This document shows, one piece after another, positions 14,791-38,822 of a stretch of DNA of 64,000 nucleotides. Origin of the DNA: Bryobacterales bacterium (GTDB lineage: Bacteria; Acidobacteriota; Terriglobia; Bryobacterales; Bryobacteraceae). The position numbers were made by a program, and so were the translations under genes. The DNA is taken from positions 3,946 to 67,945 of the forward strand of contig PNAJ01000148.1 in the NCBI GenBank assembly GCA_003170295.1, written 5' to 3'. A model generated the notes under the pieces. It did not search any database. It saw only the letters and a program-made list of their open reading frames with translations, and was not told the DNA's origin. The stretch's first letter is position 1. Every line of letters starts with the position of its first letter.

Positions 14791-15966
14791 TCAGTCTGGC
14801 GACCGGACGGATGCCTCGGCGGTCTGAAGGTCGAGGCCCACGCGCTCGCCGTTGATCAGGACGACGCTCGCGTCCAGCAATTGTTGCCCGGTGAGGTCGA
14901 ATTGCGCGTAACTGCGCAGAGCGCTCAAAGGAAATATGAATTCCACTGCCTCGCCGCCTTCCGCATTGGCGCCTGCCATGCGAACACTGGTGCTGAAATC
15001 AATTCCGCTGAAGTCGACGCTGTCTTTGAAGTAGGCGAGAACAGGGCGGACCAGGTGCGCGACGTGACGATCGAACGCCAGCGCGGCCAGCTTGTATTGC
15101 GATCCGGCATCGGATGCCGCGAGAGTCGTCGCGATCGGGATCTCCAGATATTGGCCGCCGCGAAACGCAATGAAAGATGGGGGAGCATAGGGCACGAAGT
15201 GCGCCTGTTGATCGAGATCCTTCAGCATCCTGGCCAGCGCATCGCGATAGTCGGATACCGGCTTCGATTCCGTTTCCAACTTCGCAGGCGCGCTGGGGAA
15301 CCGCGGTTCCGGTTTGGCGGACACCACGGACACCGGTATCGCCTGACCATCTTGTCGCTCGAAAGGCAAGAACGAAATCGGAGTGCGATTGAGGTATGCG
15401 GTTCCCTCCTGCACTGCGGCGGCGCGCCCGGCTTCATCGCGAGCCTCCACCAGGCGCTGCGCCGATGCCTTTGGCAGGATCAGGACGACATTTTCCGCCG
15501 ATTCCGTCTCGACCCCCAATACCTTCCTGATCACGTGGTGGGATATTTCAAGTGCGAACGCTTCCGGAACGTCGGCCCGCGCGAGGGCGGGTGCGGCGGC
15601 CTGCAGGATCGGCAGCATGACGTCGCGAAACGTTTGGCGCGTCCGTTCCTCCTTGCTCATCCGCTCGGCCGAATAAGCCGCGAAGTAATTCCCGGTGATC
15701 TTGAGAACCGTCTGTCCTTGATATTTATCGAATTGAATCGAGCGCTGATCGCTGCGCTCCTGCTCCCGCTCAGTCAGGTCCAGTTTGCGGCTGAAGTAGA
15801 AATGATACGGAAACTCGTGTTTGCCGAGCGCCGCGGTAATCGCGTGCAACTCCTCCAGATGGCTCTGCTGCAATGCGCGGATCGAGGGGTCCGCGATCTC
15901 GGCCGGCGATAACACTTGCCCGGTCGCTTGCCAAGCCAGAATCGCGAAAAGGCTAAGGATTCGCAT
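14791..15966 (-). CDS. Secreted hypothetical protein, last gene of the respiratory operon
   Basis: Signal peptide MRILSLFAILAWQATGQ. 14-nt overlap with the upstream gene. No recognisable cofactor motif. Confidence 0.6.
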   Translation of the reverse strand: MRILSLFAILAWQATGQVLSPAEIADPSIRALQQSHLEELHAITAALGKHEFPYHFYFSRKLDLTEREQERSDQRSIQFDKYQGQTVLKITGNYFAAYSAERMSKEERTRQTFRDVMLPILQAAAPALARADVPEAFALEISHHVIRKVLGVETESAENVVLILPKASAQRLVEARDEAGRAAAVQEGTAYLNRTPISFLPFERQDGQAIPVSVVSAKPEPRFPSAPAKLETESKPVSDYRDALARMLKDLDQQAHFVPYAPPSFIAFRGGQYLEIPIATTLAASDAGSQYKLAALAFDRHVAHLVRPVLAYFKDSVDFSGIDFSTSVRMAGANAEGGEAVEFIFPLSALRSYAQFDLTGQQLLDASVVLINGERVGLDLQTAEASVRSPD

Positions 15967-16672
15967 TAAATACTCCTTGGGGACGATAAGGTGGATCCGC
16001 GACCGCGCGGATATAAGCCGTCAACGCTTCAATGTCGCTCGCGGAAAGCGTAGGGCTATAAGGCGGCATCTCCGGCGATTTGCTGAGCGCGGCGCCGCCA
16101 TGGGTGATGATGGCAACTAGATTGGCGCGACTGATCTGGTTCAACGTCGCGCCATCGGAAAAAGCGTGCGGTGCGACGCTCAAATTGTCGTGGTTCGAAA
16201 CTCTTTCCGCGGTGGATTCGGAATTGTGGCATCGCGAACAGTATTTCTCATTCAACACCTGTCCCAGAGTCTGCTGGTAATCCAGAGCGATTTCAGCGAA
16301 CGTCACCTGAACCCGTTTCCCGGATTTGTCTTGCGTTGTGGCGACCAGCGAGGTTCTGCCGGATGCACCGCCCAGCCGGACCGTAGTGCTGAACTGGCCG
16401 TCGCTTCCCGTGAGTCCCGAGGGCGGATCGAAGTGCGCGCCGTCCATCGAGCTGAATTGCACCAACGCGCCGGCGACTCCCGTACCTTGCGCGTCGTTGA
16501 CTTGGGCGACCACCGGCTGATCGAGCGTCGCACCGGCGCCGGCCGTCTGCTTTTCCCCGCTGATGCCGACGATTGCCACACCGAACCCCGAGGCCACAGG
16601 CGCCGATGAGGACGATGGCGTCCGGTTGCATCCCGCTGCTGCCAGCAGCAGCAACAATGCGGCGGCCCTCAT
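15953..16672 (-). CDS. Lipoprotein with Ig-like (Big_1-like) domain and C-terminal monohaem cytochrome c
   Basis: Lipobox LLLAAAGC at the internal Met. An invasin-like beta domain is followed by CSRCH and a distal EMPPY Met-ligand motif. ATGA overlap with the upstream gene at 16669-16672. Confidence 0.75.
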   Translation of the reverse strand: MRAAALLLLLAAAGCNRTPSSSSAPVASGFGVAIVGISGEKQTAGAGATLDQPVVAQVNDAQGTGVAGALVQFSSMDGAHFDPPSGLTGSDGQFSTTVRLGGASGRTSLVATTQDKSGKRVQVTFAEIALDYQQTLGQVLNEKYCSRCHNSESTAERVSNHDNLSVAPHAFSDGATLNQISRANLVAIITHGGAALSKSPEMPPYSPTLSASDIEALTAYIRAVADPPYRPQGVFNANP

Positions 16673-18710
16673 CTCGATGCTCCTTTTCGAGGCGCGGCTT
16701 TTTGTTCCATTAAGAACGCCGTGATGGCGCGCGCATCCTCGTCGTTCATGTTCCAGTTCACCTCCAGAGTGCCTGGACGCAGCGCCTGCGCATTCTTCAG
16801 CCAGTGGAATATCCACTCCGGATTCAGCCTCAATCCCACCTCGGTGAGCGTCGGACCGATGTAGCCCTTGTCTTTAGCGGGATCGAGAATATGGCACGAA
16901 TTGCAGGCGTACTTGCCGTAATAAAGATCCTTGCCGTGCGCCGAATCGCCGCCCGCGAATTTCGCGGCGCCATCGAACGCGGCAGTCTGATACACAGTCA
17001 TGATGTAATCGGCCAGGACGCTAGCCTCTTCGTCGGTCATGTTGAACTTAGGCATGCGGCGGATCAGCGTTGGCCGAAGCGTGTTGGGGCGCTTCAAAAA
17101 ACTCACGAGCCAGCCTCGTTGTACCGAGCTCCCTTCCCACGTCAGCTCCGGCGCCATCGAGCCTCCGCGTCCATTGATTTCGTGACAACTGAAGCAGCGC
17201 ATGTCCGTCATCAACTGCCCCGCCCGCCCCGCCGGCTGATAGGTCGATGGTGGCGCGGCCTGGATTCGCAACGTGGCAGGCAACGTCTTTGCGCGAGTGG
17301 TCTGCGCGAGCAGCGCCGTCACCAGCGAGTCGACCTGCGAATCGGATAACGTGAACTTCGGCATCTTCAACGCGTTTCCGAATGACCGCGGGTTCCGGAT
17401 CTTGGCCGAGATGTAATCCGGCACCGTATGCGCCATCCCCGGCGCGAACAGGATCTTCGCGAGCGGCAGACTGCCCACGGCCGTCAATTCGGGCGCGAAA
17501 TTATCCGCGTGCGCGACGCCGTTGATTTCGTGGCACGACGCGCATCCGCGCTCGCTCACCAGCGTTTTGCCGTGTGCGATTTGCGCGGCCGTAGCCGTGT
17601 CCATGTGAACGTCCTTGAGAAAATCGGAATCCGTTTTGCTCCCGAGAAAACCCATCACGAGGCCAACGTCTTTTTCCTCGAAACGATAGTGCGGCATTGC
17701 TGTCTCGGGATCGTAAACCTTGGGATTGCGCAGCCAATCCGCCAGCCACTCCGGTTTGACCTTCGACCCGACCCGCGTCAACTCCGGTCCGATATTTCCT
17801 CCCGTCATCAGTCCCGCGGCGTTCTGCATTGCGTGGCAGGACGCGCAGAACGATTCCCCGTACACGCTCGATCCCTGCTGCACCGCCGCCGTATCGTCCT
17901 GCTTCGGAACCGCCGGAGTCTTGCGCGGCGCACCCGCAATATAAGGTGTGCTCTGGTTGATCAGAAACGCGGAAATATCGCGGGCGTCCTCGTCGCTTAA
18001 CTGGAAATTGGGCATGGTGGCCGTCGTCGCATACGCCTGCGGATTCTTGATCCATGCGAAAATCCATTCCCGCGTCGTCTTCTCCGCGACGTGCGCCAGC
18101 GACGGAGGATCGTCGGTCGCCGTCATTACGCGGCCTTCGGGCGATGCGATTTTATGGCAATGGACGCAGCCATACCGCGCCAGCATGTCTCTTCCCGCAT
18201 TGAGTTGAGGCGTTCCTTCGAGCGGTCGTTCGTGACACTGCCCGCACGACGATTCGACGTAGCGCGCCGGCAAAATCGCCTGTTCCCAAGCCTTTGTGCT
18301 GCTGTGTGCGTCCTCCACCGTCGTCGCGAAACCCTGTCCCCGATGGCACATCACGCATCCGAATTCGGTCAAGGAATGCGGAATCGGCGGATGCGGACGG
18401 AACGGCTGCGCCGCGACCCCGGCCAGCGACGCTTCCTTCAATCCCGAGTGACAAGTCGCGCAGCGGTCGACCACATCCAACTCCGGCAGCCAGATCTGTT
18501 GCACTCCTCCCTGAAATCGCCGCGCGAGCGACACGCCGTCGCTGCGATTGCGAATCAGGCTCTGGTATTCGTGCTGATAGTGCAGCCATTCGCGAAAATG
18601 ATCCTTCGCCGGCACCACCGCGAGCATCACCACGAGCACGACGCTCAGGGACCCGAACGCGCGCGCGCTGTCCCCGAACAAGAACTTCCATGCAGTGCGG
18701 ATTTTTTCGG

Positions 18711-18714
<4 letters not shown>
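16669..18714 (-). CDS. Membrane-anchored octahaem cytochrome c (4 clustered haems plus 4 class-I c domains)
   Basis: Eight CxxCH motifs: CATCH, CVMCH, CGQCH, CVHCH, CASCH, CASCH, CFSCH, CNSCH. The later domains carry MP.F Met-ligand motifs. N-terminal TM helix. ATGA overlap at 18711-18714. Confidence 0.85.
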
Positions 18715-19407
<693 letters not shown>

Positions 19408-19415
<8 letters not shown>

Positions 19416-20145
19416 GGGTTTTCTCTCCGGTGTGCAATCCGCCGTCCTTTCGGATTCGCCAGAAGTGAACCGCCAGGAACACCACGGCGATCAGCGGCAG
19501 GATCACGCAATGCAACACGTAAAATCGCAGCAGCGCATTGGCGTTCACCGTGTTGCCTCCCAAAATCAGGAAACGCGTTTTAGCCCCCATCAACGGCACC
19601 GCGGACATGATGTTGGAACCCACCGTGATCGCCCAGAACGCCAGTTGATCCCACGGCAGCAGGTATCCGGTGTAGCTCAGGAACAGTGTCAGCATGAGCA
19701 GCACCACGCCCACCACCCAGTTAAATTCGCGTGGCGGACGATACGCGCCGCGGTAGAACACTTTGAACATGTGCGCGAACACCAGCAGCACCATCGCATG
19801 CGCGCTCCAGCGGTGCAGATTCCGCAGGAACACGCCCGCCGAGACCACGAACTGCAAATCCTTCATGTCCGCGTAGCCTTGCGGAACCGAAGGATGGTAA
19901 TACAGCATCAGCAGAATTCCCGTGACCACCAGAATCAGAAAGCAGCCCAGGCTCAGCGTCCCCAAATACCAGGTCACGCCGAAATCCAGCGCCCTCCGCC
20001 GCACCTTCACCGACGCCAGGTGCATGAACACGTTCTGCTGAACCGCCAGCGACCGGTGCAGATTGGTATCGCCCGTTCCCGCCCGGAACACCGAACGCCA
20101 CACGCGCGAGTTGCGTACGCCAACCACCGCCTCAGAGAGTTTCAT
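19408..20145 (-). CDS. Cytochrome b6-type (N-terminal four-helix haem-binding core)
   Basis: Helix [18 protein letters not shown] has a His-His spacing of 14. Helix [18 protein letters not shown] has a spacing of 15, as in b6-type proteins. [11 protein letters not shown] motif. Confidence 0.9.
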
Positions 20146-20149
20146 CGTG

Positions 20150-20638
20150 TTAAATCCTGACGAACTGTTTTTGCGTCAGAGGCTCGCTGCGGTCGATCAG
20201 CAGATTGCCATCGTCGTTCACCCACGTCTTCAACCACGGTAGAGGTCGCGGAGCCGGCCCCTCGAACTTGATTCCATCCGCATGGAATTTGCTGCCGTGG
20301 CACGGACACGCGATAATGCCGAGGTCGGGTTTCCACGCCGTGAGACATCCCAGGTGCGTACACACCGCCGAGAGCGCATAAATGCCTTCGGCCCGATGCA
20401 CGATATAGAGGCCACTCGCCACATCGGGTGTTACCGAATCCAGAGGATAGCGATCGGGCTTCCCCGCATCGACAATCGGAGACGGTTCATACAACGCGTT
20501 CGGCGAGAGGAACGAGTAGCCGAATACGGCCGACCCGGCCCCCGCGATCGCTACCGCTCCGAGGCCGACGGCCGTGAACCTGCGGCGGCTGCATTCTTCG
20601 CAAGCGCCGCTGCAAGCCTTTTTTGCTTCCCCTGGCAT
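20150..20638 (-). CDS. Rieske [2Fe-2S] protein with Tat signal
   Basis: CTHLGC ... CPCHGSKF boxes. [11 protein letters not shown] twin-arginine motif. An unusual Cys-rich tail, CSGACEEC, precedes the RR motif. Confidence 0.9.
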
Positions 20639-20648
20639 CTCATTCTCC

Positions 20649-22568
20649 TCATTCCGAAAAAACCGGCGCTTGAAGCTTCATCGAATACGCTTCCATCGTG
20701 ATCGTGTTCACCGGGCATCGCTCCGCGCACAGCCCGCACCGGATGCACCGCGTTTCATCCTTCAACATGGCCGCGCCGGTCACGATCCCGAGTTCCTCCG
20801 CGGCCACGCCGTCCAACTCCACGCGGAAAATTCCGCTGTCACCGCCAATCTGTTCGAGCACGCCGGGCGGGAACTCAATCCGGTCGAGCGAGACCAGCTG
20901 GATGCAGTTCTCCGGGCACACATCCACGCAGCCTCCGCACAGGATGCATTGCGATCCGTCCGCTTCGTTGCCCTCGAACACCGTGTTTATCCAGCAACGC
21001 AGGCAGCGACGCGCCTCGCGGCGGGCCGTCTCCTCGTCGTAGACCAACTCGACTTCGGTCACCCCAGTGCGCCGGTCCAGAGGAAGCGTCGGAATCGTCT
21101 GCCGCCCGATCTCCATGTAGTCCGGATACATTTTGTGATGCTCCAGAATCTCGACTTCGATCTCCGGCTCATCATGTTTCCGCCCCGTCAGGCGCTCGTC
21201 GATTCCGTTCGCGATCCGCTTGCCGTCGCCCACGCTGTCGATGATCAGCCGCGGCCCGAAAACGCAATCCCCTCCCGCGAAAACGCCCGCCGCGCTGGTC
21301 ATCAATGTCCGGCGGTCGGCGACGATCAAACCACGGGGCGAAATGTCGACGCCGTCCTCCGGCTTCAAAAAATCGAGCCTCGGAGCTTGACCGATCGCCA
21401 GAATCACTGTGTCGCATTCAATCGTCGTCTCGCTGCCCTCTTGAAACGTAGGATTGAATTTCCCTTGGGCGTCGAACACGGCCTTCGTCCGGATCGTTTC
21501 GAGGCCCACCACCTTGCCGTCGCGGCCCAGTACCCGCACGGGACCTTGCCCGTCGTGCATCCGCACGCCCTCGATCTCCGCCTCTTCGATTTCTTCAGAC
21601 GCCGCCGGCATCTCCTCGCGCCTCTCGATGCACACGATGTTCACCTCGCGCGCGCCCAAACGCAGCGCGGAGAGCGACACGTCCACCATCTCGCGCGTGG
21701 CCACCGCCGCGATATTTTCTTCGCTCGGCGTCGCGCCCTCGTCTTCCCCGCCGTGCTGCTTCAGTACTTCGCGAACCGCGCTCCGAGCCACGTCCATCGC
21801 GACGTTTCCTCCGCCGATCACCACCACCCTTTCGCCGATGCTGAACCGGTATCCCAGGTTCGCGTTGAGTAAAAATTCAATTCCTTTATGAACTCCGTCC
21901 AAATCGACTCCAGGAATCGAGAGGTCGCGGCTGCGATGCGCTCCCACCGCGAGCACCACGGCATCGAAGCCTTGCGCGCGCAGTCCGGAGACCGTAAAAT
22001 CGCGGCCCGCGGCCGTATTCAGCTTCAGGGTGACATCCCCGGCCTCCAGGATTTCGCGAATCTGCGCCTCCACCACCGCGCGCGGAAGCCGGTACTCGGG
22101 AATGCCCAAATGGAGCATCCCGCCCGCGACCTGCGCCGCCTCGAAGATCGTGATCGAGTAACCCATCAGCGCCAGGTCGTACGCCGCCGACAATCCCACT
22201 GGCCCGCTCCCGATAATCGCGACCTTGTAAGGAAGCTTTTCGACGCTACAGCGCTTCGGCTCGAGAGGGTTCCGCGACTCCGGCCCGTACCGCTCCGTGA
22301 GAAAACGTTTCAACGCCCGGATCGAGATCGGTTTGTCGATGGCGCCGCGGCGGCAAGCGGTCTCGCATGGGTGCGCGCACACCCGCCCGCACACGCTCGC
22401 CATCGGGTTCGGATCGCGCGCGACCCGGTACGCCTCCTCGAATCGCCCATCCGCGATCAGCGAAACGTACTTCCCGGCATTGGTGCCAGCCGGGCATGCC
22501 ATCATGCAAGGGAAGTTCGTGTTGAGCCATTCGCGGTCGACGCGCTTGTCTTTCAGGCGTTCGAGCAT
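20649..22568 (-). CDS. GltD-like NAD(P)H-dependent oxidoreductase fused to a 2x[4Fe-4S] ferredoxin domain
   Basis: N-terminal CMMACPAG...CGRVCAHPCETAC (Fer4_20-like). Two Rossmann motifs, IIGSGPVGLSAA and VIGGGNVAMD. C-terminal CILCGGCVDVCP and CIRCGLCAERCP. No signal peptide. Confidence 0.9.
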   Translation of the reverse strand: MLERLKDKRVDREWLNTNFPCMMACPAGTNAGKYVSLIADGRFEEAYRVARDPNPMASVCGRVCAHPCETACRRGAIDKPISIRALKRFLTERYGPESRNPLEPKRCSVEKLPYKVAIIGSGPVGLSAAYDLALMGYSITIFEAAQVAGGMLHLGIPEYRLPRAVVEAQIREILEAGDVTLKLNTAAGRDFTVSGLRAQGFDAVVLAVGAHRSRDLSIPGVDLDGVHKGIEFLLNANLGYRFSIGERVVVIGGGNVAMDVARSAVREVLKQHGGEDEGATPSEENIAAVATREMVDVSLSALRLGAREVNIVCIERREEMPAASEEIEEAEIEGVRMHDGQGPVRVLGRDGKVVGLETIRTKAVFDAQGKFNPTFQEGSETTIECDTVILAIGQAPRLDFLKPEDGVDISPRGLIVADRRTLMTSAAGVFAGGDCVFGPRLIIDSVGDGKRIANGIDERLTGRKHDEPEIEVEILEHHKMYPDYMEIGRQTIPTLPLDRRTGVTEVELVYDEETARREARRCLRCWINTVFEGNEADGSQCILCGGCVDVCPENCIQLVSLDRIEFPPGVLEQIGGDSGIFRVELDGVAAEELGIVTGAAMLKDETRCIRCGLCAERCPVNTITMEAYSMKLQAPVFSE

Positions 22569-22573
22569 GGCCT

Positions 22574-23140
22574 CTATTTCGCCAGACTGAACGCCACCGT
22601 CGCGCTACCGGCAAGGGTCACCGGTTTAGTTTGGATTTTCATCCCTTCGTGCCATGCCGATACTGAATAGCTTCCATCCGGCACGTTCTCGATTTTGAAA
22701 TTTCCAGACGCATCTGCGATGGCGTAATACGGAGTCGGCGACACGATTATGTATCCCGACATTTCCGGATGTACGTTGCACAGCAGAGGCACCGCGCCCA
22801 CCGTGTCGAATTTGAAGGAGCGCTCTTCTCCGGTCGGCCAGGTGCCCATGTTGTGGCTCAACTTTTTGTTGCCGCTGATCGACGGCCAGAAGATGTTGTG
22901 TTGCACTTTGTCGCTGTTCAAAAATTGCACCGTCGAGCCGAGCTGCACCGCCAGTACGTGCGGCTGAAACAAGAGCGACTTCTGATCCATAACGACCGGC
23001 TTCGCCGCCGCCGGAAATGTCTTTCCCGCAATCGCCTCTACATACACCACCGAGCCCGCCTTGCCGGGGCTCACAGTTCCCGAAATGACGCCTGCTCTGG
23101 TCAGAATCGCTACTGCAAACAGCGGAATGATTTTTTTCAT
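22574..23140 (-). CDS. Secreted type-1 copper (cupredoxin) protein with C-terminal CarboxypepD_reg-like domain
   Basis: Signal peptide. Ligand pattern H (VQHNIF) ... C-x2-H-x2-M (LLCNVHPEM). The tail GNFKIENVPDGSYSVSAW follows. Confidence 0.75.
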   Translation of the reverse strand: MKKIIPLFAVAILTRAGVISGTVSPGKAGSVVYVEAIAGKTFPAAAKPVVMDQKSLLFQPHVLAVQLGSTVQFLNSDKVQHNIFWPSISGNKKLSHNMGTWPTGEERSFKFDTVGAVPLLCNVHPEMSGYIIVSPTPYYAIADASGNFKIENVPDGSYSVSAWHEGMKIQTKPVTLAGSATVAFSLAK

Positions 23141-23148
23141 AGGTCCTT

Positions 23149-24759
23149 TCAGTACACAAATTCGAGCGCGAACAACACCGTGTTCACGCGAAACGGGTTC
23201 GCTGCTAACGGGTTTCCGTTGGGAAGGCTCGCCAGAGTCACAAACTGCCGCGGCCGGATCTGGTATTCCATGGAAACCTTGATGTTCGGGTGAATCAGGA
23301 ACTGCACGCCGGGAGTAAATCGGTTCCGGCTTGAATTGTAGGGCGCGAAATAGGACGTGTTCGTCGCAAAATCCAGACCGTTAATACGATCCGCGGTCGA
23401 GTTCACCTGATCCCAGCGCATGATCGCCATCAGCCAAGGCTTCATCAGATAATCGGCCTGCATAAAGCCTCCATTAAAGGTGGCCGGAACGCCGCGCGAA
23501 AACCCCGCAGTGGTCGTGGTGGTCGGATCGATAGGCAAAGGGATCGGCGCGCCCGTCGCATCCACCGGCAGCATGTTCGAATCGTGCCCCACCATATATA
23601 GCCCGTAGAGATTGAACGTCCTGTAGTTGAAGCTGAAATCTCCGCCTGCGCGGTAATACGGCTCCCGGTTGTTGAAGAACGTGTTAGCCGTCGCGGGAAC
23701 CGTTTCGAGCGAGTTCCCGTGCAAATAGAAGGTCCCGAGGTTCAAATAGGTGTGATCGTGAGGACCCGTCGCACCGGCCGCTTGGATGTCTTTCCGAATC
23801 TTGGGATCGCTCTCCAGATTGAAGCGGTAAGACGCACGCGCATAGACGTTCTTGATGCCTGAATCGGAGCTGAACCCCACTCCGCCGCCCGCACTTGCCG
23901 TCGCCGATGGAACAAACGGAAACTGATTCGATCCCTGAGAGACTCCAGTAGTGTTTTGATCGAAAATCGCTACCGAATAGTGGTATCCGCTGTAGGTATG
24001 ACCGCCACTCAACTCAAAGCCTCGCGCCGCGTTGGCCAAAGCAGACTGATTCGCCACGTTTTGCTGCCTTGCTCCGATGTTGGCTTGCTGATAAATGTCG
24101 TAGGGACTGAGGTTTATCCCTCGCGCCTGCGTGAACGGCAGGTCCAGCTCGAACTGCCCCGCGCGGAGAGAAAGCAGGTCGTTCGGCAACTTCAGCAGGC
24201 GTCCGACGTTGACGAATTTCAGGTAGGCGTCTCCCAATCCACCGTTACTGTTGTTGCCGGAGACGCTGAGATCGTCGTCCACCCAGAATGCGATGTCGCT
24301 TCCGAAATTTCCAGCTGTAAAAATGCTGAAAAGTCCGGCTTGAAAATCCGTTGCTGGTATCACTCCCGGGACTGTGCCTGGAGCCGTTAAGGTGTCGAAC
24401 CGGTTCCGGTTCGACGTCACTTGAAAGAACTGGTTGTAGCGCAGTCCTATGGGAGGCATACCCGGCATGGTCCCCGGCCACACCGAATTGGGAAACGATT
24501 CTTTGTTCGCCGGAGCCCCCAGCATCACCGGCGCTTCCTTAAGGAAGGTATCGTCGTCGGTTGGAAACTTGAAACCCGCGTCTTTAAAGGCTTTACCGAA
24601 ATCGTTCAGCTTCGGAAAATCCATGTGGCATGTCTGGCAGGACGTCTGATACTTCCGCGCAAACGGCGGAATTGCGTAACTCTTCGACGAAGAGAGTAAT
24701 ACGAGCATCGCGGCCGCTGCCGCCACACTCGGAACAAACGTTCGGACAAACCTGAACAC
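23149..24759 (-). CDS. Outer-membrane beta-barrel protein with N-terminal monohaem c motif (Cyc2-like fused cytochrome-porin candidate)
   Basis: Signal peptide ending SYA. Mature N-terminus IPPFARKYQTSCQTCH. About 480 aa of alternating beta-strand-like sequence rich in G/Y/N/F. C-terminal ALEFVY has a terminal aromatic. GGAGG lies 5 nt before the GTG at 24759. Confidence 0.7.
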   Translation of the reverse strand: MFRFVRTFVPSVAAAAAMLVLLSSSKSYAIPPFARKYQTSCQTCHMDFPKLNDFGKAFKDAGFKFPTDDDTFLKEAPVMLGAPANKESFPNSVWPGTMPGMPPIGLRYNQFFQVTSNRNRFDTLTAPGTVPGVIPATDFQAGLFSIFTAGNFGSDIAFWVDDDLSVSGNNSNGGLGDAYLKFVNVGRLLKLPNDLLSLRAGQFELDLPFTQARGINLSPYDIYQQANIGARQQNVANQSALANAARGFELSGGHTYSGYHYSVAIFDQNTTGVSQGSNQFPFVPSATASAGGGVGFSSDSGIKNVYARASYRFNLESDPKIRKDIQAAGATGPHDHTYLNLGTFYLHGNSLETVPATANTFFNNREPYYRAGGDFSFNYRTFNLYGLYMVGHDSNMLPVDATGAPIPLPIDPTTTTTAGFSRGVPATFNGGFMQADYLMKPWLMAIMRWDQVNSTADRINGLDFATNTSYFAPYNSSRNRFTPGVQFLIHPNIKVSMEYQIRPRQFVTLASLPNGNPLAANPFRVNTVLFALEFVY

Positions 24760-25020
24760 AGTCACCTCCACTTAGCTTTGGGGACTGCATCGCACTTGGA
24801 TGGCCTTTGCACAAATGCCCCTGTTTTTAAGGTTGGCGCAGGGAGACGCCCGCGCGATATCGCACAGCGTGCGTCAGATGACGCCATATAATGACCAAAT
24901 AATGCCGAAAAAGTGGCTTGATGGAGCCTTAAATGACCATATCTCGGCCACGTGCTGGTCCTGCCGCGATTGAGCCAACCTGCGGGCCTGGACTCGACCT
25001 CGACAATCACCTTCTGTACT

Positions 25021-25061
25021 GCTGGACGTCGCCGGTTCAAACTCGGTTTCCCGCTCCATCT
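25021..25061 (+). other. Partial tRNA-Gly 3' half (attR-like direct repeat)
   Basis: GCTGGACGTCGCCGGTTCaAaCtCGGTtTCCCGCTCCATCT compared with tRNA positions 14159-14199. No matching 5' half lies upstream. Confidence 0.7.
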
Positions 25062-25084
25062 AAAAGACTTACCTATTCCAATCC

Positions 25085-25645
25085 TTACTTTTTGATCGTG
25101 ACGCGCACGGCTGCAGGCCGGATATCGATGCGGTCGATGTTGTATCCCATCTCAAACTTCTCGCCAATCTTCGCCGATGGATAAAGAGGCAGGAAGAACG
25201 TCTTAATCAGAAAATCGAGCACCGTTCCCGTGGCTACCACTCCTGAGACTTCGACACGGGTCAGGTCCACGACGCATTGGCCGCCGCCAGATTTCACCCG
25301 AATCGAAATGGTAACCGGCCGCTCACCCTCAATCATCCGAGCCATCACCCAGTTGGTCGCTTTGCCCTGGGCGTGGCGCATTTTCAAAAAATCCATCAGC
25401 GCGTAGGCGGTACCAATATCGTTGCCGAGCGTCACACGCTGGTTGCGGATTCCCTGCGGGACGATGCCGGGGACCATATAATAGGCCCATGAATTGATCT
25501 CCTGCAAGGTAAAGACGATGACGGAGCCGGGCTTCGGGTGGCCGTTTTCAATGGTGTCGAGTTTGGCCAATGCGCTGCGAACGTACGCGTCGCCCGCAGG
25601 AAGCGCCGGCGCACACAGGAGAGCCAACGTCAGCAGCCGGTGCAT
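25085..25645 (-). CDS. Secreted hypothetical protein
   Basis: Signal peptide MHRLLTLALLCAPALPAG. Coding-like composition. Confidence 0.6.
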   Translation of the reverse strand: MHRLLTLALLCAPALPAGDAYVRSALAKLDTIENGHPKPGSVIVFTLQEINSWAYYMVPGIVPQGIRNQRVTLGNDIGTAYALMDFLKMRHAQGKATNWVMARMIEGERPVTISIRVKSGGGQCVVDLTRVEVSGVVATGTVLDFLIKTFFLPLYPSAKIGEKFEMGYNIDRIDIRPAAVRVTIKK

Positions 25646-29290: not shown

Positions 29291-30307
29291 TTACGAGTAC
29301 CCGTCACTTTCCGAACGCACCTTACCCGCGAAGTGGCGATATACGTAGAAAAAATATCCGGCCGCGAGCACGATCCCGGGAATAAACCATCGTAAACCGA
29401 TCGAGAGTCCGTAGGGAGCCGCTGCCGCATTGTAGATCGTGAGCCCGAATTGCGGATCGCCGTTAGAGGGAAGCACGTAGGGATAGACACCTAACACGGC
29501 ACCGGCGAGCATCGAGACGATGAATCCGCACGACGCCAGAAACCGTGTCCGGTCGTGCTTCGCTCCCCATCCTGAGACAGCCAGCGCGACTGCCGCCAAG
29601 GGAAGCAACCATGCGCCGCGCACCGCACGCGGTTGCACCACAGCGCTGAGCGCGAGAACCAGGATCGTCATTGGGACGACAAGCCATCGCAGCCGGTTCG
29701 CCAAGCTCCGGGCCCGGGCCTGCACGTCGCCTTGGGTTTTGTATGCGACCCACAGTGCGCCATGCAACATGAGCGTGACGAAGGCCGCGACTCCGATGGG
29801 AACTGTGTACCAATCAAGAATCCCCGCGTCGTGCTGCGGCGTGAAGTTGGTCCACAAGGGCAGGAAAAAGTAGCCTTCAGCGTTCAAAGGCACGCCGCGA
29901 ATCACGTTGCCGAGCGCCGCTCCGAAAAAAATCGCTAGCAGCGAGCTGGAGAACGCAAATACCGCGTCCGCGAGCTGTTTCCAGAGGTCATGTTCGACGT
30001 GACTGCGCATTTCGATTGAGATGCCGCGAAGGATCAACAACCACAGAACCATCATCAGAGGCAGGTAGAATCCGCTGAAGCTGGACGCATAGAGAAGGGG
30101 GAACGCGAAATAGAGAGTCCCTCCGGCGGCGAGCAGCCATACTTCGTTTCCATCCCAGAACGGACCAATTGACTTGAGTACAGTCTTCCGGTCAGCATCG
30201 TTTCGCGCGACCAACAAATAGACCATGCCGACGCCAAGATCGAAACCGTCGAGAACCACGTAGGCGGTGATCATCAACACGATGAGCCAGAACCACAGTG
30301 TTTCCAT
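29291..30307 (-). CDS. cydB: Cytochrome bd ubiquinol oxidase subunit II
   Basis: METLWFWLIVLMITAYVVLDGFDLGVG N-terminus typical of CydB. Abuts cydA with no gap. Confidence 0.9.
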   Translation of the reverse strand: METLWFWLIVLMITAYVVLDGFDLGVGMVYLLVARNDADRKTVLKSIGPFWDGNEVWLLAAGGTLYFAFPLLYASSFSGFYLPLMMVLWLLILRGISIEMRSHVEHDLWKQLADAVFAFSSSLLAIFFGAALGNVIRGVPLNAEGYFFLPLWTNFTPQHDAGILDWYTVPIGVAAFVTLMLHGALWVAYKTQGDVQARARSLANRLRWLVVPMTILVLALSAVVQPRAVRGAWLLPLAAVALAVSGWGAKHDRTRFLASCGFIVSMLAGAVLGVYPYVLPSNGDPQFGLTIYNAAAAPYGLSIGLRWFIPGIVLAAGYFFYVYRHFAGKVRSESDGYS

Positions 30308-31636
30308 TTAAGCCTCCTCCCCCTCGGGTCCATGTTCGATTTCGCGCGTGACTAAGAACAGGAAAAGTACGCCGAGCACCATGTAAAGGCCCATAAAGCC
30401 GATCAGCGTAAACAATCCGTTGCCAGCGGAAACTTGGAGCGACGAGCCTTGCGCGGTTCGCATGATTCCATAGATCAACCAGGGCTGGCGGCCAATTTCC
30501 GCCGTCATCCATCCGGCGGTTGTGGCGATGTAGGGGAACGGCAGGGCGAGCATCAGCATCCACAAAACCGGACGCGCCGTGAACAATCGTCCGCCGCGCA
30601 GCAGCAGCAGCGAAATGCCCATCAACGCGAGCATCATCATGCCTAAACCGACCATAATGTGATAGGAAAAGTACAGTAACGGCACGTTATCGGGCCATAA
30701 ATCGCGTGGAAAATCGCGCAAACCCTTCACCTCCGCGCCCCACCTCTTATACGTGAGAAAACTCAGGGCTTTGGGAATCAGGATTGGATTATCGAGCTTC
30801 ATTTTTTCCATGTCGGGCTGTCCGATAATTGCCAGCGGAGCGCCCTGTTTGGTATCGAAAAGGCCTTCCATCGCGGCCAGCGTTACAGGCTGACTCTGCA
30901 GCACCATTTTCCCTTGTTGATCTCCGGTGGGAAAGATGAGCAGTGCTACCGCGATCGCTCCGGCAATCACGCCCGCGCGCACAAACGTCCGCCCGTAACC
31001 GGCATGTTTGTTCGTGAGCAAATAGTATGCGCCAATCGAAGCCATGACGAAACTACCCGTCACCACGGCTGCGATCATGTTGTGCAGATACTGCCACTGG
31101 CCCCAGGGATTGAGAAGGAATGCCCAGATGTCCGTGAGTATAATCTCGCCTTTCGGGCCCAACGAATAACCGGTGGGGTGCTGCATCCAGGCGTCGGTCA
31201 TAATGATGAAGAATCCGGATAGCCAGGATCCAAGAAAGACCAGAAACGCGGAACACCAGTGGGCGAGCGGGCTCAAGCGTTTTTCTCCGAAGATAAACAG
31301 GCCGAGAAAGCTCGATTCCAGGAAGAAGGAGAACACGCCTTCCATGGCGAGCGTCTGTCCGATGACTCCTCCGGCGGAGCGCGAGAAGCGAGCCCAGTTG
31401 GTGCCGAACTGAAACTCCATCGGAATTCCGGTGACCACGCCGAATGTGAAATTGATGGCGAAGATTTTCGCCCAGAAACGCGCGGCCCGCGCGTAGTGCT
31501 GGTTGCCGGTTCGGAGCGCAAGGGTTTTCAAAACGACGATCAGCAGCGCAAGGCCCATCGTCAATTGAGGAAATAAGTAGTGAAATGTGATGGTGAACGC
31601 GAAATGGAGGCGATGAACTGCGAGAGCCGAGTCCAT
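30308..31636 (-). CDS. cydA: Cytochrome bd ubiquinol oxidase subunit I
   Basis: LHRLHFAFTITFHYLFPQLTMGL, GWMTAEIGRQPW and a Q-loop region. Confidence 0.92.
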   Translation of the reverse strand: MDSALAVHRLHFAFTITFHYLFPQLTMGLALLIVVLKTLALRTGNQHYARAARFWAKIFAINFTFGVVTGIPMEFQFGTNWARFSRSAGGVIGQTLAMEGVFSFFLESSFLGLFIFGEKRLSPLAHWCSAFLVFLGSWLSGFFIIMTDAWMQHPTGYSLGPKGEIILTDIWAFLLNPWGQWQYLHNMIAAVVTGSFVMASIGAYYLLTNKHAGYGRTFVRAGVIAGAIAVALLIFPTGDQQGKMVLQSQPVTLAAMEGLFDTKQGAPLAIIGQPDMEKMKLDNPILIPKALSFLTYKRWGAEVKGLRDFPRDLWPDNVPLLYFSYHIMVGLGMMMLALMGISLLLLRGGRLFTARPVLWMLMLALPFPYIATTAGWMTAEIGRQPWLIYGIMRTAQGSSLQVSAGNGLFTLIGFMGLYMVLGVLFLFLVTREIEHGPEGEEA

Positions 31637-33015: not shown

Positions 33016-33186
33016 ATGAAGCGTGAAGAATTGGCTAAAAGGCTCGCCCAGAAGACTGGAGTGTCGGACTCAGCCGCTCGGGACGAAGTGGATGAACTGG
33101 TGCATAACATCCTTTACAGGCTGCGGCGGGGGCAGGCGGTGAAGCTGCCTGGAGTGGGCAAACTGGTCCCGAAGCTGCACCGATGA
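33016..33186 (+). CDS. HU/IHF-like N-terminal-domain protein (56 aa, unannotated in ORF track)
   Basis: MKREELAKRLAQKTGVSDSAARDEVDELVHNILYRLRRGQAVKLPGVGKL resembles HU helices 1-2 plus the first strand. ATGA overlap with the next gene. Confidence 0.5.
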   Translation: MKREELAKRLAQKTGVSDSAARDEVDELVHNILYRLRRGQAVKLPGVGKLVPKLHR

Positions 33187-33752
33187 GCCTGGCGCGGGGG
33201 CTGATCTTTGAGATTGTTCGAAAATCGCTCGATGCGGGGCAGGCGGTCGAGATCGAAGGGCTCGGGCGGTTTCGCGCGTCGGCGCAGGGTTACCGGTTCG
33301 ATCCGGAGACGCAGCCTACCGTTTTTGTGGCGTATGCGGTGGAGGACCTGGCGATCGCGCGGCGGCTCGCTGACGCGCTGCGCGCCGCTGGCTGTTCGCC
33401 TTGGCTCGACAAGGACCGTCTGATGCCGGGGCAGAACTGGACGGAATCGTTCAATCGGGCGATTGCGGACGCAGATGCGTTCGTGGCGTGCTTTTCACAG
33501 CGATCGGTCTCAAAGAGAGGCGAGTTCCAAAGCGAATTGCGCCAGGCGATGGAGTGCGCGGAGCGGAGACCACTCGACGATGTGTTCCTGCTGCCGGTCA
33601 GACTGGAGCGATGCGTGGTGCCTTCGCAGATCGCGGACCGGGTGCAGTACGTCGATTTGTTCCCGGATTGGGAGCGCGGGGTGAAGCGACTGGTGCGGTC
33701 GATACGCCGCGCGGCACGGCGCCGGATTTGCACCCAATTCAGTCCAGCTTGA
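33183..33752 (+). CDS. HU-like N-terminal segment fused to a TIR domain
   Basis: IVRKSLDAGQAVEIEGLGRF is followed by the TIR blocks VFVAYAVED, PWLDKD..PGQNW and AFVACFSQRSVSKRGEFQSEL, which include the conserved Glu position. Confidence 0.75.
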   Translation: MSLARGLIFEIVRKSLDAGQAVEIEGLGRFRASAQGYRFDPETQPTVFVAYAVEDLAIARRLADALRAAGCSPWLDKDRLMPGQNWTESFNRAIADADAFVACFSQRSVSKRGEFQSELRQAMECAERRPLDDVFLLPVRLERCVVPSQIADRVQYVDLFPDWERGVKRLVRSIRRAARRRICTQFSPA

Positions 33753-37979: not shown

Positions 37980-38009
37980 TGACCGCTTAGGATAGCGCAG
38001 TCCCTTCGG

Positions 38010-38780: not shown

Positions 38781-38822
38781 ATAGTCGAAGAGAGGAGGCA
38801 CGCAAAGGGCCCCTCTATCTCC

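What the first reader, a model, noticed from the sequence alone, without database searches (positions are those of the whole stretch)
23149..24759. 540-aa outer-membrane barrel candidate with a single N-terminal haem motif (Cyc2-like)
**Seen in sequence.**
- The signal peptide ends SYA.
- The mature end reads IPPFARKYQTSCQTCHMDFPKLNDFGKAF.
- The remaining about 480 aa have the alternating G/Y/N/F-rich pattern of beta-strands.
- The protein ends ALEFVY, with a terminal aromatic as in BAM beta-signals.
- A GGAGG lies 5 nt before the GTG at 24759.

**Recollection.** A P.FAR....C..CH N-terminus followed by a porin is the hallmark I recall for Cyc2 iron oxidases. This is memory, not a search result.

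**Inference.** A haem-plugged porin could move electrons across the outer membrane.
Basis: partly seen in the sequence, partly recalled or inferred. Interest (0 to 1): 0.75.

Follow-up and report, generated by a model that had tools for sequence, protein, structure and literature searches.

The report
Cyc2-type haem-porin heading respiratory operon
This gene encodes a real member of the Cyc2 family, an outer-membrane pore fused to a single haem that carries electrons to or from iron outside the cell. In this soil bacterium (Bryobacteraceae) it is the first gene of a conserved operon that also encodes a blue-copper protein and an unusual NAD(P)-linked Rieske/cytochrome b complex.

Summary
ORF 23149-24771(-) most likely starts at GTG 24759, giving 536 aa. 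It has a signal peptide ending SYA and only two cysteines, both in one CXXCH.

The sequence A-I-P-P-F-A-R-K-Y-x3-CxxCH-x3-PKL matches the published Cyc2 consensus exactly.

- AlphaFold2 (pTM 0.81) gives about 16 long strands.
- The best PDB fold match is OprP, as published for Cyc2.
- A profile comparison with Cyc2 from Gallionella, Zetaproteobacteria and Acidithiobacillus gives 99.8% probability over the whole length.

It is a new member of a known family, the K-Y motif type. Cluster 3 is inferred, not tested.

The context was not in the finding. Across about 60 metagenome loci (40-85% identity) the gene heads a fixed operon:

1. Cyc2-like protein
2. type-1 copper protein
3. NAD(P)-oxidoreductase-like FeS flavoprotein
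4. Rieske protein
5. cytochrome b6
6. subunit IV
7. octahaem cytochrome c
8. cytochrome c
9. unknown protein

The Rieske protein is closest to those of the anammox NAD(P)-linked Rieske/cytochrome b complexes.

Whether electrons flow inward (Fe(II) oxidation) or outward (Fe(III) reduction) is unresolved.

Most public gene calls start at Met50, which removes the signal peptide and the haem motif.

The parts
23149..24759 (-). Cyc2-like fused cytochrome-porin gene (536 aa from GTG 24759; the maximal ORF reaches GTG 24771, 540 aa; the stop codon is 23149-23151)
   Evidence: ORF list and sequence. Start supported by homologue N-termini and by the 536-aa ENA call P0380. More than 2600 homologues.
24765..24769 (-). 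GGAGG ribosome-binding site, 5 nt upstream of GTG 24759
   Evidence: Read directly from the sequence.
24673..24759 (-). Signal peptide (residues 5-33 in 540-aa numbering), ending S-Y-A
   Evidence: Sequence. Ala33 is invariant, and the n- and h-regions keep their character but not their sequence. AF2 predicts a helix at 3-26. SignalP was not available.
24607..24675 (-). Cytochrome signature A33-IPPFARKY-QTS-C45QTCH49-MDF-P53KL55 (CXXCH at 24625-24639)
   Evidence: Matches the AXPXFAR[Q/K][T/Y] / CXXCH / PXL consensus of PMC8406198. F37, R39, Y41, C45, C48 and H49 are invariant in 138 sequences.
24622..24624 (-). ATG (Met50) used as the start in most public gene calls (491-aa product). This start removes the signal peptide and the haem motif.
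   Evidence: P0001 is 491 aa and begins MDFPKLNDF.
23152..24450 (-). Beta-barrel porin region (residues about 108-540), about 16 long strands and long loops
   Evidence: AF2 DSSP. Foldseek top hit OprP 2o4v_A, E 1.2e-11, followed by OmpU/OmpF-type 16-strand porins. Barrel-only profile-profile match to canonical Cyc2: 96.5%, E 9e-10.
22574..23140 (-). Secreted type-1 copper protein (cupredoxin) with a C-terminal CarboxypepD_reg-like beta-sandwich, 188 aa. It starts 8 nt after the Cyc2-like stop codon.
   Evidence: Pfam Copper-bind and CarboxypepD_reg. Ligands H81, C121, H124 and M127 are invariant in 5 orthologues at 35-62% identity. Plastocyanin and amicyanin are the best PDB sequence hits. 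Found downstream in 62 of 62 loci.
20649..22568 (-). Cytoplasmic FeS flavoprotein resembling the beta subunit of glutamate synthase (putative NAD(P) oxidoreductase module), 639 aa
   Evidence: Pfam Fer4_20, Pyr_redox_2 and 4Fe-4S ferredoxin (Fer4) domains with 2 matched stretches. Present in 42 of 44 loci.
20150..20638 (-). Rieske [2Fe-2S] subunit with a twin-arginine N-terminus; cluster boxes CTHLGC and CPCHGSKF
   Evidence: Pfam. Best PDB hits are 9rk4 (Kuste4569, 2.4e-24) and 9rk3 (Kustd1480, 8.4e-21). Box II is conserved across the operon family.
19408..20145 (-). Cytochrome b6-type subunit (the N-terminal half of cytochrome b), 245 aa
   Evidence: Pfam Cytochrome_B, 5.8e-45. Present in 34 of 36 loci.
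18711..19415 (-). Subunit-IV-like subunit (the C-terminal half of cytochrome b), 234 aa
   Evidence: Pfam Cytochrom_B_C. Syntenic in the metagenome loci.
16669..18843 (-). Membrane-anchored octahaem cytochrome c (8 CXXCH). The maximal ORF is 724 aa; the public call is 681 aa, starting near 18714.
   Evidence: Translation. Pfam cytochrome c domains. Present in 29 of 29 loci.
15953..16816 (-). Big_1 Ig-like domain plus monohaem cytochrome c (the public call is 239 aa)
   Evidence: Pfam. Syntenic.
14791..15966 (-). Last operon gene: a secreted 391-aa protein with no family match
   Evidence: No Pfam hit. Signal-peptide-like N-terminus. Syntenic at 26-75% identity.

Best explanation
The gene encodes a Cyc2-family fused monohaem cytochrome c-porin.

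Proposed biogenesis:
1. Sec export and cleavage after SYA.
2. The N-terminal segment (about 70 aa) receives one covalently bound haem at C45/C48, with H49 as the axial ligand.
3. The remaining roughly 430 aa fold into a 16-strand, OprP-like outer-membrane barrel, inserted via the C-terminal beta-signal.

Proposed function: it acts as a one-electron gate between a soluble extracellular redox couple, most likely Fe(II)/Fe(III), and the periplasm. Its dedicated periplasmic partner is the type-1 copper protein encoded 8 nt downstream.

In this organism the copper protein connects to the products of the next six genes. These form a b6f-like Rieske/cytochrome b complex with an octahaem cytochrome c on the periplasmic side and an NAD(P)-oxidoreductase-like FeS flavoprotein on the cytoplasmic side.

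What is shown: the family signature, the fold class, homology to Cyc2 of known iron oxidisers, and the near-invariant operon.

What is inferred: haem attachment, the position of the haem in the pore, who donates to whom, and the direction of flow.

My estimates for direction:
- About 0.45: inward flow, Fe(II) -> Cyc2 -> cupredoxin -> cytochromes c -> Rieske/b complex and oxidases. This follows the three biochemically tested family members.
- About 0.3: outward flow, quinol -> Rieske/b -> octahaem -> cupredoxin -> Cyc2 -> Fe(III).
- The remainder: another substrate.
For: - Motif: it matches the published Cyc2 consensus exactly. There is one CXXCH, and the only two cysteines of the protein lie in it.
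- Family: more than 2600 homologues and 2575 representative clusters. All 40 or so full-length distant representatives that are not truncated at the N-terminus keep the motif, with a few close variants, and have one CXXCH; nearly all end in F or Y.
- Fold: AF2 gives pLDDT 77.5 and pTM 0.81 with about 16 long strands. The Foldseek top hit is OprP 2o4v, the same structural homologue reported for Cyc2PV-1.
- Homology to canonical Cyc2 recovered from Gallionella, Sideroxydans, Zetaproteobacteria and Acidithiobacillus genomes: the HMM scores 51.8 bits against at most 5.9 for shuffles. hhalign gives 99.8%, E 9.6e-29, over 363 columns end to end. Barrel-only profiles give 96.5%.
- Operon: gaps of 4-10 nt, or overlaps, between the first six genes.
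- Synteny: cupredoxin in 62/62 loci, NAD(P) module in 42/44, Rieske in 38/41, cytochrome b6 in 34/36, octahaem in 29/29, across 40-85% identity. The same arrangement occurs at 26% identity (L007).
- Copper ligands are invariant.
- Precedent for Cyc2 -> blue copper protein -> cytochrome c -> bc1 in both directions exists in Acidithiobacillus ferrooxidans (PMC7735108).
Against: - No Pfam or NCBIfam model and no solved structure matches the sequence.
- The FeGenie Cyc2 HMMs and their cut-offs could not be run.
- Ordinary HMM similarity to canonical Cyc2 lies entirely in the N-terminal 105 aa. The barrel alone scores like a shuffle.
- The model's coordinates could not be inspected, so barrel closure and haem placement are not verified.
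- No conserved Met or second His stands out as a distal haem ligand.
- K-Y type (Cluster-3-like) Cyc2 are the ones whose function the field regards as least certain.
- The window shows a heterotroph-like gene content with no carbon-fixation genes.
- A cultured Bryobacteraceae, Paludibaculum, reduces Fe(III) rather than oxidising Fe(II).
Confidence: 0.8

Rival explanations
1. Same protein family, but working outward. The operon would be a self-contained quinol:extracellular-acceptor oxidoreductase. Quinol is oxidised at the Rieske/b6 complex. The high-potential electron leaves via octahaem c -> cupredoxin -> Cyc2 to Fe(III) or another extracellular oxidant. The low-potential electron goes through the b haems to the NAD(P) module, as proposed for the anammox complexes.
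For: - The Rieske subunit is closest to Kuste4569 and Kustd1480. Its box II reads CPCHGSKF, with Ser present and Phe in place of Tyr, as in Kustd1480, which has a potential of +335 mV.
- The subunit set is the same as in the anammox complexes, which are proposed to make NAD(P)H and need a high-potential acceptor on the positive side.
- Cyc2, rusticyanin and bc1 are implicated in Fe(III) respiration in A. ferrooxidans.
- Paludibaculum fermentans, a Bryobacteraceae, performs dissimilatory Fe(III) reduction.
- The window has no autotrophy genes.
Against: - All three biochemically tested family members were assayed as Fe(II) oxidases.
- The NAD(P)H-generating function of the anammox complexes is itself only proposed.
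- Smaller loci with Cyc2, cupredoxin and a cytochrome c but no Rieske/b complex (L128, L129) resemble the downhill rus-type arrangement.
- I did not show that Paludibaculum carries this operon.
Confidence: 0.3
2. A Cyc2-like gate for a substrate other than iron, such as Mn(II), humic or quinone compounds, or reduced sulfur species. Alternatively, an Fe(II) detoxification or redox-sensing device rather than an energy-conserving one.
For: - Cyc2 homologues are core genes of Mn(II)-oxidising 'Ca. Manganitrophaceae' and occur in many organisms not known to oxidise iron.
- Authors state that Cyc2 may serve other extracellular electron-transfer processes.
- The organism comes from peat or soil metagenomes rich in humic substances (sample names).
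Against: - No family member has been shown to use a non-iron substrate.
- The small pore with a single haem is argued to suit dissolved Fe2+.
- Fixed coupling to a large respiratory complex argues against a mere detoxification role.
Confidence: 0.12
3. An ordinary diffusion porin whose N-terminal CXXCH is incidental or binds haem for uptake, with no electron-transfer role.
For: - The fold matches general porins.
- The barrel has no sequence-level similarity to anything annotated.
Against: - The cytochrome segment is the most conserved part across thousands of sequences.
- It matches a motif described as unique to Cyc2.
- The gene is almost always followed by redox proteins.
Confidence: 0.03

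Closest known systems
Cyc2 fused cytochrome-porins (A. ferrooxidans Cyc2; Mariprofundus Cyc2PV-1; Gallionellaceae and Zetaproteobacteria Cluster 1)
   Same: - Signal peptide, single CXXCH, the AXPXFAR[Q/K][T/Y] and PXL motifs at the same spacings, and an OprP-like 16-strand barrel.
- Profile-profile match of 99.8% over the full length.
- A blue copper protein and c-type cytochromes as genetic partners, as in the rus operon.
   Different: - K-Y rather than Q-T after FAR.
- 536 aa, against about 407-520 aa for the extracted references, with longer loops.
- Only 12-15% identity in the barrel.
- The copper protein is plastocyanin/amicyanin-like with an extra CarboxypepD_reg domain; it is not rusticyanin.
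- The operon partner is an NAD(P)-linked b6-type complex rather than aa3 oxidase or PetI/PetII.
Cyt572 of Leptospirillum (Cyc2 Cluster 3)
   Same: - A large (my recollection: about 57 kDa) outer-membrane monohaem protein of the same family.
- A sequence-similarity network places Cyt572 in a cluster with Acidobacteria and Nitrospira homologues (PMC10654088).
   Different: - I could not obtain a Cyt572 sequence, so no direct comparison was made.
- Cyt572 has an unusual haem and a long branch, and may not represent the cluster.
Anammox Rieske/cytochrome b complexes Kuste4569-4574 and Kustd1480-1485
   Same: - Subunit set: Rieske, b6-like cytochrome b, subunit IV, hexa- or octahaem c, and a cytoplasmic NAD(P) oxidoreductase.
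- The window's Rieske is closest to these two among all PDB sequences.
   Different: - Found in an aerobic or facultative Acidobacteriota cell envelope rather than the anammoxosome membrane.
- No HAO-like subunit.
- Genetically fused to an outer-membrane Cyc2 and a cupredoxin, which anammox clusters are not described as having.
Porin-cytochrome complexes MtrCAB, MtoAB, PioAB
   Same: An outer-membrane barrel combined with c-type haem for trans-outer-membrane electron transfer.
   Different: Those use a 26-strand barrel enclosing a separate decahaem protein. Here a single polypeptide carries one haem and has about 16 strands.
OprP/OprO phosphate porins and OmpF-type general porins
   Same: Best structural matches for the barrel.
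   Different: No haem domain and no detectable sequence similarity. TM-scores are only 0.56-0.67 when normalised to the target.

Membership tests
Cyc2 fused cytochrome-porin family (as defined by Keffer et al. 2021 and FeGenie) | N-terminal signal peptide | tested here: met
   By inspection: basic n-region, 17-residue hydrophobic core, S-Y-A at -3 to -1. Ala at -1 is invariant. AF2 predicts a helix at 3-26. SignalP was not available.
Cyc2 fused cytochrome-porin family (as defined by Keffer et al. 2021 and FeGenie) | Exactly one CXXCH haem c motif near the N-terminus | tested here: met
   C45-Q-T-C48-H49. There are no other cysteines in the protein.
Cyc2 fused cytochrome-porin family (as defined by Keffer et al. 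2021 and FeGenie) | AXPXFAR[Q/K][T/Y] motif, five residues between Arg and CXXCH | tested here: met
   A33-I-P-P-F-A-R39-K-Y, then Q-T-S, then C45. Definition.
Cyc2 fused cytochrome-porin family (as defined by Keffer et al. 2021 and FeGenie) | PXL motif four residues after CXXCH | tested here: met
   H49-M-D-F-P53-K-L55. Definition.
Cyc2 fused cytochrome-porin family (as defined by Keffer et al. 2021 and FeGenie) | Length of at least 365 aa | tested here: met
   536-540 aa.
Cyc2 fused cytochrome-porin family (as defined by Keffer et al. 2021 and FeGenie) | C-terminal beta-barrel porin, about 16 strands, structurally like OprO/OprP | tested here: met
   AF2 DSSP shows about 16 long strands between residues 108 and 539. 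The Foldseek top hit is OprP 2o4v_A, E 1.2e-11, probability 1.00. Barrel closure was not checked on coordinates.
Cyc2 fused cytochrome-porin family (as defined by Keffer et al. 2021 and FeGenie) | Score above the cut-off of a FeGenie Cyc2 cluster HMM, and placement in the Cyc2 tree (cluster assignment) | not testable with these tools
   The FeGenie HMMs are not on hand. Surrogates: my HMM of 89 Q-T-type Cyc2 gives 51.8 bits (shuffles at most 5.9), and hhalign gives 99.8%, E 9.6e-29. Cluster 3 is inferred from the K-Y motif and only.
Cyc2 fused cytochrome-porin family (as defined by Keffer et al. 2021 and FeGenie) | Covalent haem, outer-membrane location, Fe(II) oxidation activity | not testable with these tools
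   This needs expression, haem staining, fractionation and kinetics.
NAD(P)-linked Rieske/cytochrome b complexes of the anammox type (operon partner) | Rieske + b6-like cytochrome b + subunit IV + multihaem c + NAD(P) oxidoreductase encoded together | tested here: met
   Pfam domains of the six genes. Eight CXXCH in the cytochrome. Composition as described in PMC12954380.
NAD(P)-linked Rieske/cytochrome b complexes of the anammox type (operon partner) | Rieske subunit related to Kuste4569/Kustd1480, with high-potential second-sphere residues | tested here: met
   9rk4 at 2.4e-24 and 9rk3 at 8.4e-21 are the top PDB hits. CPCHGSKF has Ser present and Phe at the Tyr position, as in Kustd1480. The potential was not measured.
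NAD(P)-linked Rieske/cytochrome b complexes of the anammox type (operon partner) | Extra b-type haem and FeS path from cytochrome b to the flavoprotein; NAD(P)+ reduction | not tested
   No Kuenenia cytochrome b or flavoprotein sequences were on hand, and no complex was modelled.
MtrB/PioB-type porin-cytochrome complexes | 26-strand barrel with a separate decahaem partner | tested here: not met
   About 16 strands, and the haem motif lies on the same polypeptide. Definition.

The most novel reading that the evidence does not exclude
The nine-gene operon may encode one trans-envelope machine not yet described. In it, an outer-membrane Cyc2 gate and a dedicated copper protein are hard-wired to an anammox-type Rieske/b6 complex carrying an NAD(P) reductase module. 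Electron exchange with extracellular iron would then be coupled directly to NAD(P)H formation by bifurcation at the quinol site, with extracellular Fe(III) as the high-potential sink, or to its reversal. The machine appears widespread in soil and peat Acidobacteriota.
Probability: 0.2. Interest if true: 0.8.

Novelty: new member of a known kind. Interest (0 to 1): 0.5.

Why it matters
Cyc2 is the main candidate marker gene for microbial iron oxidation.

Three practical points follow.
- A large, well-conserved Bryobacteraceae and soil clade of long K-Y-type Cyc2 exists.
- Some copies, including this one, are called from an internal Met. Motif-dependent screens such as FeGenie, which require the haem motif, would then miss them.
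- In these bacteria the gene is not solitary. It heads a fixed operon that ends in an NAD(P)-linked Rieske/b complex so far discussed only for anammox bacteria.

This gives two open questions a tractable, aerobic, soil-bacterial test case. The first is what Cluster-3-type Cyc2 do in organisms that are not classical iron oxidisers. The second is whether such Rieske/b complexes really make NAD(P)H. It may also bear on iron cycling in peat and thawing permafrost soils.

Tried and rejected
- **Family scans.** Pfam and NCBIfam scans of the protein gave no hit, even at E<=10.
- **PDB sequence search.** A profile of the family found nothing.
- **Reference sequences from the literature.** None were available. 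The supplements of PMC8406198 hold only an identity table and figure captions. I therefore used the single genome-contig scan on the degenerate pattern for FARQTxxxCxxCH. This gave Cluster-1/2-type references but no Leptospirillum Cyt572, so cluster assignment stayed untested.
- **Barrel-only HMM.** Its score against canonical Cyc2 was indistinguishable from shuffles. Only profile-profile comparison saw the barrel.
- **Promoters.** The sigma-54 (-24/-12) and sigma-70 scans upstream of the gene found nothing usable. There were fewer matches than in shuffles, and none on the minus strand at 24772-25084. The terminator scan was also not above background.
- **Rieske N-terminus.** The Cys-rich stretch CSGACEEC, ahead of the twin-arginine motif, looked like a possible extra metal site. 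It is confined to the closest relatives: 2 of 39 distinct sequences carry the full pattern. I dropped it as a general feature.
- **Prior descriptions of the operon.** I searched for papers holding all the terms in three combinations: Cyc2 with Rieske, glutamate synthase and cytochrome b; Cyc2 with cupredoxin and Cluster 3; and Cyc2 with Stordalen. None returned a paper. The search for Cyc2, Rieske and Acidobacteria found nothing describing it. This is absence in the held library only.
- **First script run.** It timed out on MAFFT --auto and was rerun with faster settings.
Full report
**1. Observation**

The ORF lies on the minus strand at 23149-24771.
- a signal peptide ending S-Y-A;
- a mature N-terminus IPPFARKYQTSCQTCHMDFPKLNDFGKAF;
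- a C-terminus ...FALEFVY;
- GGAGG at 24769-24765, five bases before GTG 24759.

The '540 aa' is the longest possible ORF, from GTG 24771. The likelier start is GTG 24759, giving 536 aa. The close homologues P0002 and P0003 begin at the aligned position, and one public gene call of this exact gene is 536 aa (P0380).

The protein has only two cysteines, and both lie in the CXXCH.

Most public calls of this gene (NCBI, JGI, Logan, ENA) begin at Met50, the ATG directly after CXXCH. They give a 491-aa 'hypothetical protein' that lacks the signal peptide and the haem motif.

**2. It is a conserved gene family, not a chance motif**

- A word-indexed search found more than 2600 homologues. The best 120 are 64-100% identical, all unnamed or 'hypothetical', and the named ones come from Bryobacteraceae MAGs.
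- In 14 of them, residues A33 to P70 are almost entirely invariant.
- A profile search of 1.84 billion cluster representatives found 2575 at E<=1e-3 and 182 at E<=1e-30.
- Essentially every full-length distant representative that is not truncated at the N-terminus (419-578 aa, 24-33% identical) shows AIPxFARKYxTSCxTCHxxFPKLNxFG or a close variant, has one CXXCH, and ends in Phe or Tyr.
- 112 of 120 close homologues carry the full extended motif. All 109 distant homologues carry its core, F[AS]R[QK][TY]x3CxxCH.
- Pfam, NCBIfam and PDB sequence searches found nothing. The family has no curated model in those libraries.

**3. Fold**

AlphaFold2 on a 138-sequence alignment gave mean pLDDT 77.5 and pTM 0.81.

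DSSP shows a signal-peptide helix and then a region of about 70 residues with short helices and bridges (pLDDT 66-84 outside 33-37). About 16 long strands follow, between residues 108 and 539, separated by several long, low-confidence loops.

Foldseek against the PDB puts OprP (2o4v_A, E 1.2e-11) first, followed by OmpU/OmpF-type 16-strand porins, all at probability 1.00. Keffer et al. report the same OprO/OprP relationship and 16 strands for Cyc2PV-1.

I could not inspect coordinates. Barrel closure and the position of the haem segment inside the pore are therefore not verified.

**4. Membership in Cyc2**

Keffer et al. (PMC8406198) define the family by:
- a signal peptide;
- one CXXCH;
- an AXPXFAR[Q/K][T/Y] motif, placed so that five residues separate the Arg from the first Cys;
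- a PXL motif four residues after CXXCH;
- a length of at least 365 aa;
- a porin domain.

The window protein reads A-I-P-P-F-A-R-K-Y / Q-T-S / C-Q-T-C-H / M-D-F / P-K-L and meets each point.

To test homology directly, I scanned the species-representative genomes for the DNA pattern encoding FARQTxxxCxxCH. I extracted the ORFs. They include genes from Gallionella, Sideroxydans, Gallionellaceae, several Zetaproteobacteria, Mariprofundaceae and Acidithiobacillus. Typical lengths are 407-520 aa, with one CXXCH.

- An HMM of 89 full-length references scores the window protein 51.8 bits. The best of 200 shuffles scores 5.9.
- An HMM of 13 Gallionellaceae and Zetaproteobacteria sequences scores it 35.5 bits.
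- The signal comes from the N-terminal 105 residues (55 bits). The barrel alone scores 4.6 bits, like a shuffle. This agrees with the literature statement that Cyc2, Cyc2PV-1 and Cyt572 share significant similarity only at the N-terminus (PMC5566968).
- Profile-profile comparison sees further. The full-length comparison gives 99.8% probability, E 9.6e-29, with 363 aligned columns running to both C-termini. With the cytochrome parts removed it still gives 96.5%, E 9e-10, over 155 columns.

I conclude that the protein is a genuine Cyc2-family member of the K-Y motif type.

Assignment to 'Cluster 3' is inferred only. It rests on the motif variant and on the report that Leptospirillum Cyc572 clusters with Acidobacteria and Nitrospira homologues (PMC10654088). 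I had neither the FeGenie HMMs nor a Cyt572 sequence.

**5. Surroundings**

The gene is the first of nine co-directional genes. The first six are separated by 4-10 nt or overlap. In order, they are:

| Coordinates (minus strand) | Product | Evidence |
|---|---|---|
| 23149-24759 | Cyc2-like protein | sections 1-4 |
| 22574-23140 | Secreted type-1 copper protein with a C-terminal CarboxypepD_reg-like domain | H81, C121, H124, M127 invariant in orthologues down to 35% identity; plastocyanin and amicyanin are the best PDB hits |
| 20649-22568 | FeS flavoprotein resembling the beta subunit of glutamate synthase | Fer4_20 + Pyr_redox_2 + ferredoxin-type 4Fe-4S domains |
| 20150-20638 | Twin-arginine Rieske protein | |
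| 19408-20145 | Cytochrome b6-type subunit | |
| 18711-19415 | Subunit-IV-like protein | |
| 16669-18843 | Membrane-anchored cytochrome c with eight CXXCH | |
| 15953-16816 | Big_1 domain plus cytochrome c | |
| 14791-15966 | Secreted 391-aa protein without family | |

Among all PDB sequences, the Rieske protein is most similar to 9rk4 (2.4e-24) and 9rk3 (8.4e-21). These are Kuste4569 and Kustd1480, the Rieske subunits of the two Kuenenia Rieske/cytochrome b complexes that carry an NAD(P) oxidoreductase and a hexa- or octahaem cytochrome c. Those complexes are proposed to generate NAD(P)H (PMC12954380).

The Rieske box II reads CPCHGSKF throughout the operon family. Ser is present, and Phe sits where bc1 Rieske proteins have Tyr, as in Kustd1480 (+335 mV).

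**6. The operon is conserved**

A scan of JGI metagenome contigs with the family alignment returned 80 loci at 40-85% identity. tblastn with the window's operon proteins, counting only loci with enough downstream DNA, found:
- the copper protein in 62 of 62;
- the flavoprotein in 42 of 44;
- Rieske in 38 of 41;
- cytochrome b6 in 34 of 36;
- the octahaem cytochrome in 29 of 29.

All lie in the same order and at nearly the same offsets.

Five loci show a shorter variant, Cyc2 - copper protein - a relative of the 391-aa protein.

A homologue only about 26% identical (P0358, L007) has the same operon behind a sigma-54 activator.

Other distant K-Y-type loci keep the copper protein with a c-type cytochrome or a COX2-like gene, but have no Rieske/b complex (L005, L006, L128, L129).

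Among 120 Q-T-type loci the copper protein or the Rieske/b genes appear only sporadically.

The constant partner of this Cyc2 type is therefore the copper protein. In the soil and peat clade the whole nine-gene unit is fixed.

**7. How it most likely works**

*Shown:* the family signature, the fold class, homology to Cyc2 of iron oxidisers, and the fixed gene partnership.

*Inferred from established knowledge of Cyc2:* the haem-bearing N-terminal segment sits in the barrel and exchanges single electrons with a small dissolved species outside the cell, most plausibly Fe(II)/Fe(III). It passes them to or from a periplasmic carrier, here the adjacent type-1 copper protein. This is the analogue of rusticyanin next to Cyc2 and Cyc1 in the A. 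ferrooxidans rus system. The octahaem cytochrome and the monohaem cytochrome would link the copper protein to the Rieske centre.

*Direction is open.*
- **Inward flow (Fe(II) oxidation)** has the biochemical precedent of A. ferrooxidans Cyc2, Cyt572 and Cyc2PV-1. The Rieske/b complex would then serve the 'uphill' branch, as PetI does.
- **Outward flow** is supported by four points.
  - The anammox-type model needs a high-potential acceptor on the periplasmic side to drive NAD(P)+ reduction.
  - Cyc2, rusticyanin and bc1 operate during Fe(III) respiration in A. ferrooxidans (PMC7735108).
  - A cultured Bryobacteraceae, Paludibaculum fermentans, performs dissimilatory Fe(III) reduction (PMC8407742).
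  - The window has a heterotroph-like gene content, with a cytochrome bd oxidase nearby but no carbon-fixation genes.
- My estimates are about 0.45 inward, about 0.3 outward, and the rest another substrate or role.

**8. Comparison and novelty**

The protein is a new member of a known kind. Cyc2 homologues in Acidobacteriota MAGs are already reported by FeGenie-based surveys and in a sequence-similarity network.

What I did not find described in the held literature is the fixed operon joining a Cyc2, a dedicated cupredoxin and an NAD(P)-linked Rieske/b6 complex of the type known from anammox bacteria. That combination is the most novel reading, and it is only partly supported here.

**9. Verdict**

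- The 'Cyc2-like' interpretation is supported.
- The iron-oxidase function and the direction of flow are not established.
- Interest is moderate: 0.5 overall, and higher if the trans-envelope NAD(P)-coupled machine is real.

Noticed in passing
window 24622-24771 (-): NCBI, JGI and Logan gene calls, and some ENA calls, start this gene at the ATG for Met50, directly after CXXCH. The resulting 491-aa 'hypothetical protein' has no signal peptide and no haem motif. One other ENA call is 536 aa. 3 of 120 close homologues are truncated in a similar way, so screens that require the haem motif would miss them.
   Followed up: yes
window 14791-22568 (-): The genes downstream of the finding encode a b6f-like Rieske/cytochrome b complex. 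It has an octahaem cytochrome c and a cytoplasmic FeS flavoprotein resembling the beta subunit of glutamate synthase. This is the subunit set of the anammox NAD(P)-linked complexes. The Rieske protein's best PDB matches are Kuste4569 and Kustd1480.
   Followed up: partly
window 20150-20638 (-): The Rieske box II is CPCHGSKF, with Ser present and Phe in place of Tyr, in all 38 distinct sequences of the operon family that were examined (two have a conservative change, CPCHGSTF and CPCHGSRF). A Cys-rich stretch (CSGACEEC) precedes the twin-arginine motif but occurs only in the closest relatives.
   Followed up: partly
window 29291-31636 (-): Cytochrome bd oxidase subunits I and II lie about 4.5 kb upstream of the operon. 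This is the only terminal oxidase seen in the window.
   Followed up: no
L031 6533-6571 and L036 41-79: Bryobacterales and Bryobacteraceae genomes also carry a second, Q-T-type Cyc2 (ALPSFARQTGQRC.ACH; 465 aa in L031). Members of the order can therefore hold Cyc2 of two motif types.
   Followed up: no
L152, L188, L192, L204, L209: In five metagenome loci the Cyc2-like gene and the copper protein are followed directly by a relative of the 391-aa unknown protein, not by the Rieske/b genes. This ties that unknown secreted protein to the Cyc2-cupredoxin pair.
   Followed up: no
L005 2054-5304, L006 3842-7095, L007 8447-9808, L004 9243-9695: Distant K-Y-type Cyc2 loci are preceded by an sCache histidine kinase with a sigma-54 response regulator, by a sigma-54 activator alone, or by a cNMP-binding (Crp/Fnr-like) protein. 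No sigma-54 promoter-like site was found upstream of the window gene.
   Followed up: partly
window 33183-38801: A TIR-domain ORF (33183-33752, +) abuts four consecutive minus-strand ORFs of 263-743 aa that have no Pfam match. This could be a defence-type island.
   Followed up: no
window 25085-25645 (-): A 186-aa ORF with a signal-peptide-like N-terminus and no family match lies just upstream of the Cyc2-like gene. It was found only in copies of the same contig, not in the homologous operon of L004.
   Followed up: no
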